A stretch of 17,219 nt of DNA from a virus (Duplodnaviria; Heunggongvirae; Uroviricota; Caudoviricetes): the IMG/VR virus record IMGVR_UViG_2547132273_000010; one strand, given 5' to 3'. A program made the position numbers. Numbering within the stretch: the first letter of the stretch is position 1; each line of letters begins with the position of its first letter. Below are positions 3,001-6,000 of the stretch, one piece after another.

Positions 3001-6000
3001 GCACCTGGAATTTATCCTGCATCTGGCGCACAAAACGCGATGCAATTGTCTCTTCCGGTGTCAGACTGCTGGTACGGGAGTAATACGGCCCCTTGCGAAT
3101 ATCTTCAGGATAGAGTATTTTATCCGCAGAGCCGCGATAAGAATGTTCCCCTTTGGGCAATTGGAGCCCTCTGTGCAGAAGGTTATCGCGGCTTAATTTT
3201 TCTCTCCGGTACAACGTTAACCCGGTCATTTCCATACTCTTCAGTTTTTTTCCATTTTCTGTACCGTAAACAGAAGCTACCTTGTTGATTTCCAGACGCG
3301 ACCGGACAGCCTTCATGTGTACCGCTGACACCACCGGATCACCATTTTTATCCACGGCATCAAGCAGCATCACAACCGCATTTCTTTCTGTCGCTGAGCG
3401 GTAAATTGCATCCGGATCGTGCATCAGTTCCGGTAGTCTCTCGATAACATCCATCGGCACCACATGTTTCACACCATTGGTGGCCTTCCGCACAGTATCG
3501 CGGGAAATAACCAGCGGCAAATCCGGTGCACCAAGGTGACGCAATACCGGCGGCGTACGCCCGATGTTTACCGTTAAATCTGTGGTGCGCAGAGATTTCA
3601 TCATTCTGGCAAGGTCATCACGATAACGCTCGCCCTCACCTTCCGGCACTTTGAACGGATCACGTTTACCACTACGGGAGTACTGAGACGATGCGCCCGC
3701 GCCATCCTCACGCGGCGTGTAACCTTCCCGCACACGCTGGCCTAACGTACGGATGGTCTCGCGAACAAGTCTGATATCGTTCAGTTCCGTCGGCTTCAGT
3801 AACCCCGTACGACGCAGTACCCCTTTGACCAGGGCAACAACACGCTCCCATGCCGCCACGAATTTATTCGGCTGTTTCTCCGCCATATGTGCCAGAAATT
3901 CACCCGCCTGTACTTCCGGTGATTCCTTACCATAGGAAGCATCAACCTTACGCCAGGCTTCACGGATGGTGACGTTATCACTGTCGCGGGTTTTCAGCAC
4001 GGTTTTGATAATCGTCTGATATTCCGCTGGTGTGACAACATGCTCCATGGCATGGTGAATGATCTCGTGACGCAGCTTCTCGCGAACGGTCCGCCCGTCA
4101 GGGATGTTATCCGCCACCAGGACAATTTCTCGTTTATCCGGACGATAGAATGCGTGCACCCTGCCGTAACCATCGAACAATTCACCCGCCAGCGCTTCAG
4201 CCTCTTTCTGTGACTTCACCACACGGACCTTCAGGTCACTGTCCTTAATGCCGCTCATCACGCCACGGGCAACCGCTTCAACCTGCGGGACCGGGCTGCC
4301 TTTGGCTTCCGCACTACGGTTAACATCCGAAATGAGATTACCTTCAGGTGTGCGGGTAACGCCCTTACGGGAATAAAACGCAACGCCCTTGTCCGTCTCA
4401 CGGGTTTTCAGGGTGCGGAACAGGTGATCGAATGCCTCACGAATACCGCCATCCAGTTCCGCATTCGTCGGATAAGCCCAGGTGTTATCTGTGTTGTGCT
4501 CAGGTGCCTTACGGATATTGACCAGATAATCATTCTCCACGCCAGCCATACGCGCCTTATCCTGAACATAACGCTCAAAGGCACGTGCCGCCATTTCAAC
4601 ATCCGTTGACCAGTACGGTTTTGAGCGCACCTCATCGAGAAGCACTGAACGACGCGGCATGTCACTGTTTTTAATGGCCTGAATCACACCTTTAAAAGCA
4701 TCGTAAACCTCCTGACGTACCGGATATTCAGCATCAACATACCTGCCGTCTTTAAATATGCGCCTGACACGCTGTGCTTCCGTCATAAAGTCGCCACCTG
4801 ACGTAATTTTCCCGTCATTGGAAACGTCATAACGACCAAAATAATTATCCAGAGAATGGAACCATTCGTGCGCCAGCGCACCCGGTCCGTTACCTTTTGT
4901 CAGGTTGATTGCCACCTCACCCGGCTCATAGTGTGCTGCCGCCTTACCCTTACCACGGGCACCAAATGCCAGGCCAAGACGACCGTTCAGGGAAAGCGCT
5001 TTTGTCGGTACATTCAATACTTCCGCAAGGTCATGCAGCGAGTCATAAGCCCGGTTCAAATCAGCCTGACGACGCGGACCTTCCACGTAGTTACCAAACT
5101 GCACACCACGGAAACCAAACGCATCACTGAACTGCTCCGGTGAAACATCCCCTTTACGGCGTTCTGGTCCGGTACGGTCGCGGTTGGTGGCGTTACGCTG
5201 CTCCTCACGCGAAATCTCCCGCATCTCCTTCACATGACGAACAAGCTCATCACGATGTGAATCAATGTACTTACGCGCATCACTGGCTGACTTAAAGCCA
5301 CCTCTCACCCGCATTTTGTTTTTGCCATAAGCGATAAAAATATCGCCACTGCGGGTATTCCGGTAAACGTCAAAGCGGATTTTGTCATCCGGTGACGGTG
5401 CCGTTTTTTCATCTCCTTTCGCCTGTGACTTTTCCTCCAGCTCTGCAAACCAGACTTTCGCCTTTGTCAGTAATTCATCCCTGCTTTCCGAGAAAAAGAG
5501 GTTAGTCCCCTTATTGTCCTTATTGCGCAGTGAATAAAGTTTCTGTGGCGGATCGTAACGCTTCCCTCCTGCCGCCTGATACACACCCGATACCACCCGA
5601 TAAGCAGAAGCCTTGTCCATCTGTGAGGGTGGCAGAGTGCGTAACAGTTGCCAGGTATCCGCGTAACGGGAGGGCATTCTGCCTTCCATCCATTCTGCGA
5701 GGCGTTTCGCGCTGACCGTTCCGTTAAGCATTTCCGATACACTGTGTCGTACTTTTTTTACGCTCTCCCCCCAGCCAGCCGTATTGTGTTTCGTCTTCGC
5801 CGGAATATCGCTACGATACAGCGCTATCATTGCCAGGGTGTCAGCATCAGCCCCTTCGCTCGCCAGTTTTGCGTAGTCCGGTTTCGGGAACAGTTTGCTC
5901 AGCGGCTGCGTGGCATAATCCCTGTCTTCCAGCGTTTTACCCAGTGTTTCAGCAAGCTGTGCATAACGGTGTTTGGCTGCCCCTTTAATTTCCTCGCCAA

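What the first reader, a model, noticed from the sequence alone, without database searches (positions are those of the whole stretch)
4040..4870. Two distinct HExxH sites about 270 residues apart
GALAHEWFHSLDNYF (4856-4870) and LRHEIIHHAMEHV (4040-4069) each carry HExxH. The second has a third His five residues after the motif (HExxHxxxxH), reminiscent of SprT/WLM-type or metzincin-like metal sites; the first looks gluzincin-like. Two candidate metal sites in one polypeptide point to a multi-enzyme effector.
Basis: seen in the sequence. Interest (0 to 1): 0.65.

Follow-up and report, generated by a model that had tools for sequence, protein, structure and literature searches.

The report
Two zinc-protease domains, Stx-phage giant protein
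The two HExxH motifs are real and conserved, and each sits in its own predicted zinc-protease domain inside the 2,806-residue protein that Shiga-toxin phages pack into their virions; this is a known design for giant phage "polyvalent" proteins, so it is a new example rather than a new kind of system.

Summary
Both motifs exist at the stated coordinates: HEWFH at aa 1297-1301 and HEIIH at aa 1564-1568 of the minus-strand ORF 338..8758. They are the only two HExxH in the protein, against 0.04 expected by chance.

The window is 100% identical to Stx-converting podophages P13374 and TL-2011c. The ORF is the homologue of phi24B gp47, an abundant virion protein.

- **Site 2:** It lies in a separate zincin-like domain with no Pfam, NCBIfam or PDB sequence match. 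The family motif is HExxxH. The Stx and Salmonella clade lost one residue, which gives HExxH. E1620 is invariant.
- **Third ligand at site 2:** The "third His" H1573 is not conserved, so the SprT or metzincin reading fails. Site 2 is also Glu-type.

The most likely role is Zn-dependent processing of the ejected polyprotein, or cleavage of host proteins; this is inferred, not shown. Verdict: new member of a known kind, modest interest.

The parts
338..8758 (-). Giant ORF, 2806 aa: polyvalent virion (ejection) protein of an Stx-converting podophage (P13374 ORF78; homologue of phi24B gp47). The probable true start is M14 at nt 8719.
   Evidence: The ORF is listed and translated. The region is 100% identical to P13374 and TL-2011c. 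PHROG 616 (2793 positions) aligns from aa 14. GGAG lies 7 nt upstream of M14, and there is no such site before the first ATG. Virion presence of the phi24B homologue: bioRxiv 10.64898/2026.04.10.717836.
5120..5569 (-). Pfam LPD5 (aa 1064-1213), the N-terminal subdomain of the first peptidase module.
   Evidence: Pfam E = 8e-45. It travels together with the HExxH core and LPD1 in stand-alone proteins of about 335 aa.
4409..5176 (-). Zincin domain 1 (aa 1195-1450), of the CLCA_X / phage-type polyvalent MPTase kind.
4931..4933 (-). H1276, the conserved His at the end of strand 2 of zincin 1 (AAAHYEP).
   Evidence: Conserved in 81/82 homologues. It lies in strand 221-224 of the model. This feature is described for the clade by Iyer et al. 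2017.
4847..4870 (-). Site 1: H1297-E1298-W-F-H1301-S-L-D1304 (HExxHxxD).
   Evidence: H, E and H are each kept in 81/82 homologues and D in 80/82. The motif lies in helix 241-258 of the model, where block pLDDT is 97.
4547..4603 (-). Glu helix of zincin 1 (aa 1386-1404, DVEMAARAFERYV...). E1388 is the predicted third zinc ligand. E1395 and R1392 are also invariant.
   Evidence: E1388, R1392 and E1395 are each kept in 82/82 homologues. The helix is 332-350 in the model, with pLDDT about 98.
4400..4639 (-). Pfam LPD1 (aa 1374-1453), which is the C-terminal half of zincin 1 and contains the Glu helix.
   Evidence: Pfam E = 1e-23. It lies inside the CLCA_X match and contains model helix 332-350.
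3689..4300 (-). Zincin domain 2 (aa 1487-1690), a member of the HExxxH-type clade of polyvalent-protein peptidases. No Pfam, NCBIfam or PDB sequence match.
4052..4069 (-). Site 2: H1564-E1565-I-I-H1568-H1569. The family consensus is HE-h-h-x-H-[H/Y]-G, and this clade has lost the 'x' residue.
   Evidence: E1565 and H1568 are invariant and H1564 nearly so in alignment A3. In the family 147 of 159 instances read HExxxH; apart from 6 instances with no recognisable motif, the rest belong to the query clade, which reads HExxHH. The motif lies in helix 69-88 of the model.
4040..4042 (-). It is not conserved and is unlikely to be a ligand.
   Evidence: The commonest residue at this column is N (65 of 168). 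H does not appear among the six commonest residues listed, each of which occurs in at least 8 of the 168 sequences. It is N or Q in Salmonella relatives.
3878..3919 (-). Glu helix of zincin 2 (aa 1614-1627, PEVQAGEFLAHMAE). E1620 is the predicted third ligand, and E1627 is nearly invariant.
   Evidence: E1620 is present in 165 of 165 aligned residues and E1627 in 152. E1620 is invariant in A3. The helix is 128-141 in the model.
3203..3472 (-). MuF-C domain (aa 1763-1852). Iyer et al. 2017 assign it a BECR/PBECR RNase fold, so it is not a metallopeptidase.
   Evidence: Pfam E = 1e-17. The interpretation comes from PMC5512222.
677..1294 (-). LPD38 (aa 2489-2694), within the conserved C-terminal module of giant phage polyvalent proteins.
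   Evidence: Pfam E = 4e-48. PHROG families 14770, 10691 and 10089 match the C-terminal region.

Best explanation
The ORF is the virion-packaged 'polyvalent' ejection protein of a Stx-converting podophage. It carries two unrelated zincin-type metallopeptidase domains in tandem.

**Domain 1 (aa ~1195-1450).** It is flanked by Pfam LPD5, and Pfam LPD1 forms its C-terminal half. It is a lethal-factor-like gluzincin of the CLCA_X / phage-type MPTase family. The predicted zinc ligands are H1297, H1301 and E1388, and E1298 is the catalytic base. H1276 and D1304 line the pocket.

**Domain 2 (aa ~1487-1690).** It belongs to the HExxxH clade of polyvalent-protein peptidases. In the Stx and Salmonella lineage a one-residue deletion restored the canonical spacing. 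The predicted ligands are therefore H1564, H1568 and E1620, with E1565 as base. H1573 is not a ligand.

**What is shown.** The motifs, their conservation, the predicted zincin topology, and the presence of both regions in phi24B virions.

**What is inferred.** Zinc binding and proteolysis are inferred. So is the role, which I take most likely to be cutting the 2,806-aa polyprotein, in cis or in trans, into separately acting modules (N-terminal part, MuF-C RNase-like domain, C-terminal LPD38 module) during or after ejection. Cleavage of host proteins is the second option.
For: **Origin and virion presence.**
- The region is 100% identical to P13374 and TL-2011c.
- phi24B gp47 is an abundant virion protein that is not seen in the cryo-EM map.
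- Tryptic peptides covering both HExxH motifs and both Glu helices were detected in phi24B virions.

**Domain 1.**
- HExxH is kept in 81/82 homologues, E1388, R1392 and E1395 in 82/82, H1276 in 81/82 and D1304 in 80/82.
- The AF2 model (pLDDT 84, pTM 0.78) shows helix, three strands, HExxH helix, Glu helix.
- NCBIfam CLCA_X matches at E = 8e-44 over the whole profile.
- The features match the phage-type MPTase described by Iyer et al. 2017: His at the end of strand 2 and Asp three residues after HExxH.

**Domain 2.**
- There are 356 representative clusters at E <= 1e-3.
- H1564 is kept in 162/165 aligned residues, E1565 in 164/165 and E1620 in 165/165.
- MAFFT places a one-residue gap in the query clade, so H1568 falls in the invariant second-His column.
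- 147 of 159 family instances read HExxxH.
- The AF2 model (pLDDT 85) has the same element order.
- Iyer et al. describe an HEXXXH clade.

**Architecture.**
- Among 124 long representatives that carry domain 2, 27 also carry domain 1, always N-terminal to it, and 27 carry two or more copies of domain 2.
- Salmonella relatives have a PRTase inserted exactly between the two domains, which confirms them as separate modules.

**Processing hint.**
- gp47 spectra are spread over gel slices 1-9 (about 47% in slices 3-9), whereas other virion proteins give sharp peaks.
Against: - No experiment shows zinc binding or proteolysis for either domain or for any close homologue.
- Domain 1 scores below NCBIfam's CLCA_X cut-off (150 against 260 bits), and Pfam's peptidase models do not hit it.
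- For domain 1, Lenart et al. 2013 proposed the Asp after HExxH as the extra ligand rather than a distant Glu, so the identity of the third ligand is unresolved.
- The gel-slice spread of gp47 could be smearing, or degradation during the six months the preparation was stored, rather than specific processing.
- Phage N4 vRNAP and plasmid ArdC, which carry comparable domains, are transferred unprocessed.
Confidence: 0.7

Rival explanations
1. One or both domains are effectors that cleave host E. coli proteins after injection (for example defence, envelope or regulatory proteins), and they do not process the phage polyprotein.
For: The closest solved folds to domain 1 are toxins or secreted proteases that cut foreign substrates: lethal factor, PPEP and BoNT. 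Iyer et al. list this as one of the possible roles. The protein is delivered with the DNA.
Against: No substrate is known. Among relatives of domain 2, peptidase domains often recur (two or more copies of domain 2 in 27 of 124, domain 1 as well in 27 of 124), and Iyer et al. describe them as often lying between other domains; this fits a linker-cutting role. According to my own knowledge (not checked here), CLCA, the eukaryotic relative of CLCA_X, is a self-cleaving protease.
Confidence: 0.3
2. Domain 2 is not a peptidase. It is a zincin-fold metal-dependent hydrolase of another kind, such as a YbeY-like RNase, that works with the adjacent MuF-C RNase-fold domain.
Against: According to my own knowledge (not checked here), YbeY binds metal through three His and lacks the Glu base. 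Domain 2 has an invariant HE..H plus a distant invariant Glu, which is the peptidase signature. Most of the other hits are peptidases. Domain 2 usually occurs without MuF-C: only 17 of 124 long relatives have it.
Confidence: 0.1
3. The peptidase domains digest the peptide cross-links of peptidoglycan to let the ejection conduit cross the cell wall, as the phi24B preprint proposes for 'the metallopeptidase domain'.
For: The preprint proposes this. The protein is an ejection protein of a short-tailed phage, which must cross the periplasm.
Confidence: 0.08
4. The motifs are relics. The domains are catalytically dead scaffolds that serve only for packaging or folding of the giant protein.
For: The MPTase-containing region of N4 vRNAP is needed for encapsidation, yet that protein is not processed. 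No activity data exist.
Against: The whole catalytic set (H, E, H and the distant E) is almost perfectly conserved down to about 25-35% identity in both families. That argues for selection on chemistry, not only on fold.
Confidence: 0.07

Closest known systems
Phage-type zincin-like MPTase of polyvalent proteins (Iyer et al. 2017, PMC5512222), equal to the CLCA_X family (Lenart et al. 2013, PMC3650047; NCBIfam NF041907)
   Same: Site 1 has every described feature: HExxH on the first of two C-terminal helices, a conserved His at the end of strand 2, Asp three residues after HExxH, and a Glu on a later helix. It occurs in a giant phage protein encoded next to virion genes.
   Different: It scores 150 bits against NCBIfam's cut-off of 260, so it lies outside that curated subfamily. 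Lenart et al. write the motif as HExxHxxxD, whereas here and in my alignment it is HExxHxxD. Pfam covers only the flanks, as LPD5 and LPD1, and leaves the catalytic core without a model.
HEXXXH clade of polyvalent-protein MPTases (Iyer et al. 2017)
   Same: Domain 2's family consensus is HE-h-h-x-H-[H/Y]-G, followed by an invariant Glu helix, and it is found mainly in polyvalent proteins of 1000-6000 aa.
   Different: In this protein and its close Salmonella-type relatives one residue is missing, so the motif reads as canonical HExxH followed by His. I could not see the alignments of Iyer et al., so identity with their clade is inferred from the motif and the context.
Anthrax lethal factor, Pro-Pro endopeptidases (M34) and MtfA (M90) gluzincins
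   Different: Sequence identity is only 12-15%, and a profile search of PDB sequences found no match. Domain 1 has extra LPD5 and insert subdomains, sits inside a virion polyprotein, and has no known substrates.
HExxxH peptidases with a downstream Glu ligand (MATCAP/TMCP tubulin carboxypeptidases, DPP III)
   Different: There is no detectable sequence relationship. The phage protein itself has the canonical spacing. The structural score is modest.
SprT/Wss1 (WLM) proteases and metzincins
   Different: These families are defined by a third His a fixed distance after HExxH, and metzincins also by a Gly and a Met-turn. Here the candidate His (H1573) is not conserved, and the invariant extra residue is a distant Glu.

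Membership tests
Zincin-like MPTase of polyvalent proteins, phage-type clade (= CLCA_X) - site 1 | HExxH on a helix that follows a three-stranded sheet and an N-terminal helix | tested here: met
   The AF2 model has helix 174-194, strands 208-211, 221-224 and 229-232, and helix 241-258 carrying H243, E244 and H247. HExxH is kept in 81/82 homologues.
Zincin-like MPTase of polyvalent proteins, phage-type clade (= CLCA_X) - site 1 | Conserved Glu on a second, downstream helix (third ligand) | tested here: met
   E1388 and E1395 are kept in 82/82 homologues and lie on model helix 332-350. Which of the two, or D1304, binds the metal was not resolved.
Zincin-like MPTase of polyvalent proteins, phage-type clade (= CLCA_X) - site 1 | Conserved His at the end of strand 2 and Asp three residues after HExxH | tested here: met
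   H1276 is kept in 81/82 homologues and lies in strand 221-224. D1304 is kept in 80/82. The feature is described.
Zincin-like MPTase of polyvalent proteins, phage-type clade (= CLCA_X) - site 1 | Score at or above NCBIfam NF041907's curated cut-off | tested here: not met
   150 bits against a cut-off of 260, although E = 8e-44 over profile positions 3-245 of 250. It is a relative of that curated subfamily, not a member of it.
Zincin-like MPTase of polyvalent proteins, phage-type clade (= CLCA_X) - site 1 | Fold similarity to solved gluzincins | tested here: met
HEXXXH clade of polyvalent-protein MPTases - site 2 | HExxxH spacing of the two His | tested here: not met
   The family has it in 147 of 159 instances. 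This protein reads HEII-HH, that is HExxH after a one-residue deletion. It is homologous to the clade but atypical in the defining motif.
HEXXXH clade of polyvalent-protein MPTases - site 2 | Conserved downstream Glu helix | tested here: met
   E1620 is kept in 165/165 and E1627 in 152/165 aligned residues. Both lie on model helix 128-141.
HEXXXH clade of polyvalent-protein MPTases - site 2 | Zincin fold | tested here: inconclusive
SprT/WLM and metzincin families - site 2 | Third zinc-binding His at a fixed distance after HExxH (HExxHx5H, or HExxHxxGxxH plus Met-turn) | tested here: not met
   H1573 is four residues past H1568, with no Gly at the metzincin position. The column is variable, N being the commonest residue.
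Any curated Pfam peptidase family (including the polyvalent-protein MPTase model) | Significant match to the Pfam HMM | tested here: not met
   No peptidase family reaches significance for either segment. Only Peptidase_M76 appears, at E = 0.1-0.2, around HExxH of site 2.
Zinc metallopeptidase (either site) | Metal binding and metal-dependent peptide-bond hydrolysis | not testable with these tools
   This requires purified protein. No experimental report was found for this protein or for close homologues.

The most novel reading that the evidence does not exclude
The giant Stx-phage virion protein is a self-processing polyprotein. After ejection into E. coli, its two different zinc proteases cut it into an N-terminal module, an RNase-like MuF-C module and a C-terminal LPD38 module, each acting on a different target. 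Domain 2 represents a large zincin family with no curated model, in which a single-codon deletion converted HExxxH back to HExxH without loss of function.
Probability: 0.3. Interest if true: 0.55.

Novelty: new member of a known kind. Interest (0 to 1): 0.35.

Why it matters
Stx-converting phages spread Shiga-toxin genes among E. coli. Their largest virion protein, about 308 kDa by my estimate from its length, is abundant but invisible in the cryo-EM map, and databases label it only 'LPD5 domain-containing' or 'hypothetical'.

This work places two conserved zinc-protease active sites in that protein and names the residues to mutate: E1298 and E1565 as bases, and H1297, H1301, E1388 and H1564, H1568, E1620 as ligands. 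That gives phage biologists direct handles for asking how the protein is processed and what it does on entry.

It also corrects a current preprint, which credits the metallopeptidase activity to the MuF-C domain. It shows that Pfam 'LPD1' is the ligand-bearing half of a peptidase rather than an independent domain of unknown function. It flags a widespread HExxxH zincin family (356 representative clusters) that lacks a Pfam or NCBIfam model.

The general principle, several zincin domains inside phage polyvalent proteins, was already published in 2017. A specialist would therefore find this useful but not surprising.

Tried and rejected
- **Chance occurrence:** rejected by shuffling (P = 0.0002 for two motifs) and by conservation.
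- **Direct Pfam, PADLOC and PDB sequence searches for a peptidase family:** nothing found for either site. Pfam gives only LPD5, LPD1, MuF_C and LPD38. PADLOC gives nothing. PDB phmmer and profile searches give nothing relevant.
- **The two domains as duplicates of one another:** rejected, since hhalign of the two family alignments shows no relationship (probability 5.6%, over an irrelevant stretch).
- **Extra cryptic copies of either domain in the giant protein or in neighbouring ORFs:** none found.
- **Third-His (SprT or metzincin) reading of site 2:** rejected on conservation.
- **His oxidation on the site-2 peptide in the phi24B proteomics as a sign of metal binding:** rejected, because the same modification is listed on unrelated peptides such as one from the capsid protein.
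- **Foldseek of the domain-2 model against the PDB:** no significant hit. The AFDB50 library was not available.
- **Classical transmembrane helices in the giant protein:** none at a Kyte-Doolittle 19-residue mean of 1.4 or above.
- **Pectobacterium P0018 as a stand-alone 'domain 2 + MuF-C' protein:** discounted, because the adjacent locus tag encodes an LPD1 fragment, so the gene is probably a split pseudogene.
- **Genomic context of a stand-alone domain-1 protein:** uninformative about function.
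Full report
**Observation.** The finding lies in a single minus-strand ORF, 338..8758, which encodes 2806 aa. A regular-expression scan of the translation finds exactly two HExxH motifs. HEWFH is at aa 1297-1301 (nt 4856-4870) and HEIIH is at aa 1564-1568 (nt 4055-4069), 267 residues apart. From the protein's composition 0.039 HExxH are expected, and 5000 shuffles give P(>=2) = 0.0002.

**Where the window comes from.** The region is 100% identical to the Stx-converting podophages P13374 and TL-2011c, and 90-100% identical to about 180 other Stx phages. In RefSeq the ORF is P13374 ORF78, 'LPD5 domain-containing protein'. It is the last and largest gene of the late region, downstream of tail-fibre and internal-virion-protein genes.

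Pfam finds LPD5 (aa 1064-1213), LPD1 (1374-1453), MuF_C (1763-1852) and LPD38 (2489-2694). These are hallmarks of the 'polyvalent proteins' of Iyer et al. 2017 (PMC5512222). No peptidase family is reported for either motif, even when the segments are scanned alone at E <= 10.

A 2026 preprint on the close relative phi24B (bioRxiv 10.64898/2026.04.10.717836) identifies the homologue gp47 as an abundant virion protein that is absent from the cryo-EM map. It proposes that gp47 is an encapsidated ejection protein.

**Site 1.** A homologue search with aa 1203-1460 returned 156 proteins. Many are stand-alone proteins of about 335 aa that Pfam annotates as LPD5 + LPD1 and that cover the motif region between them.

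- **Conservation.** In an 82-sequence alignment (A2), H1297, E1298 and H1301 are each kept in 81/82 sequences. E1388, R1392 and E1395 are kept in 82/82, H1276 in 81/82 and D1304 in 80/82.
- **Model.** The AlphaFold2 model of aa 1055-1460 (pLDDT 84, pTM 0.78) has the canonical zincin order. There is a helix (174-194), three strands (208-232), a helix carrying HExxH (241-258), a variable insert, and a helix carrying the invariant Glu residues (332-350).
- **Family match.** NCBIfam's CLCA_X model matches aa 1195-1450 at E = 8e-44 over essentially its whole length, although below the curated cut-off (150 against 260 bits).

CLCA_X was described by Lenart et al. 2013 as a phage and plasmid zincin family related to the self-cleaving CLCA proteases. 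[quoted passage not shown]

Site 1 is therefore a member of a described family. A by-product is that Pfam LPD1 is not an independent domain. It is the C-terminal half of this peptidase and carries the predicted third ligand.

**Site 2.** The word-indexed search found only close relatives, but these were already informative.

- Salmonella homologues read HEIIHHAMENV or ...EQV, so H1573 is lost at about 76% identity over this domain.
- A Pectobacterium homologue reads HEVIAHHGL.
- The Salmonella proteins carry a phosphoribosyltransferase domain inserted exactly between LPD1 and the site-2 domain, which defines the module boundary.

An exhaustive phmmer search of 1.84 billion representatives with aa 1487-1690 found 356 clusters at E <= 1e-3. 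Most are proteins of 1000-6000 aa, and some are stand-alone proteins of 200-300 aa. Across the aligned residues at each position, H1564 is kept in 162/165, E1565 in 164/165, E1620 in 165/165, E1627 in 152/165 and Y1609 in 151 of 164. H1573 is not conserved.

The family consensus is HE-h-h-x-H-[H/Y]-G, and 147 of 159 instances read HExxxH. MAFFT places a one-residue gap in the query clade (HEII-HHAM against HEVLAHHGL). This puts H1568 in the invariant second-His column and gives the better fit for the following residues. This protein therefore has canonical HExxH spacing inside an HExxxH family.

Iyer et al. mention such an HEXXXH set of polyvalent MPTases. HExxxH with a downstream Glu is also used by characterised peptidases, the tubulin carboxypeptidases (KIAA0895L/TMCP1) and DPP III.

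Three results limit this assignment:
- Foldseek finds nothing significant.
- Pfam scans of 28 family members find no peptidase family.
- A profile search of PDB sequences finds nothing relevant.

The fold assignment for domain 2 is therefore good but not beyond doubt. The two domain families show no profile-profile similarity to each other, so they are not recent duplicates.

**Architecture.** Neither domain has a second, degenerate copy in this protein, and the neighbouring ORFs have no HExxH or HExxxH. Among 124 long representatives that carry domain 2, four patterns stand out:
- 27 also carry the CLCA_X-type domain, always N-terminal to domain 2.
- 27 carry two or more copies of domain 2.
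- 17 carry a MuF-C-like domain.
- 32 carry the C-terminal module.

[quoted passage not shown] Two peptidase sites in one polypeptide is thus a recurrent, published design.

**How it most likely works.**

Shown:
- The motifs and their conservation.
- The predicted zincin topology.
- That peptides covering both HExxH motifs and both Glu helices are present in phi24B virions. Spectral counts were 34 for HEIIHHAMEHVVTPAEYQTIIK, 7 for GNGPGALAHEWFHSLDNYFGR, 115 for ESPEVQAGEFLAHMAEK and 108 for SKPYWSTDVEMAAR.

Inferred, from established zincin chemistry: each site binds Zn2+ through two His and a Glu, and the motif Glu acts as the general base.

For the biological role I favour the model of Iyer et al., in which the peptidases cut the polyprotein into separately acting modules around the time of ejection. 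Attack on host proteins is the main alternative.

There is one weak hint of fragmentation. In the phi24B gel-slice data gp47 spectra are spread from slice 1 to slice 9, and about 47% fall in slices 3-9. Slices 5-9 correspond to about 50-80 kDa, judged from the peaks of the portal, spike and nozzle proteins and gp48. Other virion proteins give sharp peaks. That preparation had been stored for six months, and peptide-by-slice data are not available, so smearing or non-specific decay is not excluded.

The preprint's idea that a 'MuF-C metallopeptidase' digests peptidoglycan is not supported. MuF-C is a BECR/PBECR RNase-fold domain, and neither zincin domain resembles known cell-wall peptidases.

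**Comparison and novelty.** Site 1 belongs to the CLCA_X / phage-type MPTase family, though it lies outside NCBIfam's curated threshold. Site 2 is homologous to the HExxxH polyvalent clade but atypical in spacing. The SprT/WLM and metzincin comparison fails on the defining third His.

The kind of system is known (2013, 2017). What is new here is the assignment of both sites in the Stx-phage protein, the recognition of LPD1 as part of the peptidase, the one-residue deletion variant, and the absence of any curated model for the domain-2 family. I rate it a new member of a known kind, with interest 0.35.

**Limits.**
- The third ligand of site 1 (E1388, E1395 or D1304) is unresolved.
- There is no biochemical evidence for this protein or for near relatives.
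- Residue numbers follow the annotated ORF. The true start is probably M14, which would lower all numbers by 13.

Noticed in passing
window 8719-8758 (-): The annotated start (ATG at 8758) has no Shine-Dalgarno sequence. M14 (ATG at 8719) has GGAG 7 nt upstream, and the 2793-position PHROG 616 profile aligns from aa 14. The real protein is probably 2793 aa.
   Followed up: partly
window 3203-3472 (-), MuF_C, aa 1763-1852: The phi24B cryo-EM preprint calls this a 'Muf-C metallopeptidase domain' and bases a peptidoglycan-degradation idea on it. According to Iyer et al. 2017, MuF-C is a BECR/PBECR RNase-fold domain. The actual metallopeptidase candidates are the two HExxH domains upstream. I did not check whether the MuF-C copy here keeps its catalytic residues.
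   Followed up: partly
Proteins P0012 and P0019 (Salmonella enterica), aligned in A1; corresponds to window ~4300-4400 (-): Salmonella homologues carry an insertion of about 300 residues between LPD1 and the second peptidase domain. One of the two proteins carrying it is named 'phosphoribosyltransferase' by NCBI. This is an example of module shuffling at the domain boundary.
   Followed up: partly
Proteins P0018 and P0116 (Pectobacterium sp. S5, locus tags QWJ20_10685 and QWJ20_10690): The homologue appears split into adjacent ORFs: an LPD1 fragment, and a piece holding domain 2 plus MuF-C. It is probably a decaying prophage gene. Its domain 2 keeps the ancestral HEVIAHHGL (HExxxH) form.
   Followed up: no
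L002 and L003, 5569-9008 (metagenomic phage contigs): A stand-alone LPD5 / HExxH / LPD1 protein of 335 aa (P0141) sits directly after genes for Amidoligase_2, a GATase_6 amidotransferase and a GGACT/AIG2 cyclotransferase, and a few genes upstream of the terminase. A link between this peptidase and a peptide-ligation system may be worth a look.
   Followed up: no
phi24B proteome supplement (bioRxiv 10.64898/2026.04.10.717836), gp47 row: gp47 spectral counts fall gradually over gel slices 1-9 (2188, 1686, 1187, 1260, 663, 447, 478, 427, 374), whereas other virion proteins give sharp peaks. This could reflect fragments of the 308-kDa protein, or smearing and storage decay.
   Followed up: partly
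window 8789-10054 (-), 421-aa ORF (P13374 ORF77): The gene immediately upstream of the giant ORF corresponds to phi24B gp48, which was detected in virions with a sharp peak at about 46 kDa and labelled 'Transcription factor?' in the supplement. Its function was not examined here.
   Followed up: no
window ~7420-7500 (-), about aa 419-446: A Gly/Ala-rich stretch (GVADATIEGAALGAAMGAPFGAVAGY) gives weak glycine-zipper Pfam hits (E about 0.07). No classical transmembrane helix was found anywhere in the protein.
   Followed up: partly
window 338-3202 (-), aa 1853-2806: The C-terminal ~950 residues, which include LPD38, match the C-termini of other giant phage proteins: PHROGs 14770 and 10691, and 10089, which is annotated 'DarB-like antirestriction'. 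This suggests a shared C-terminal module of unknown role.
   Followed up: no
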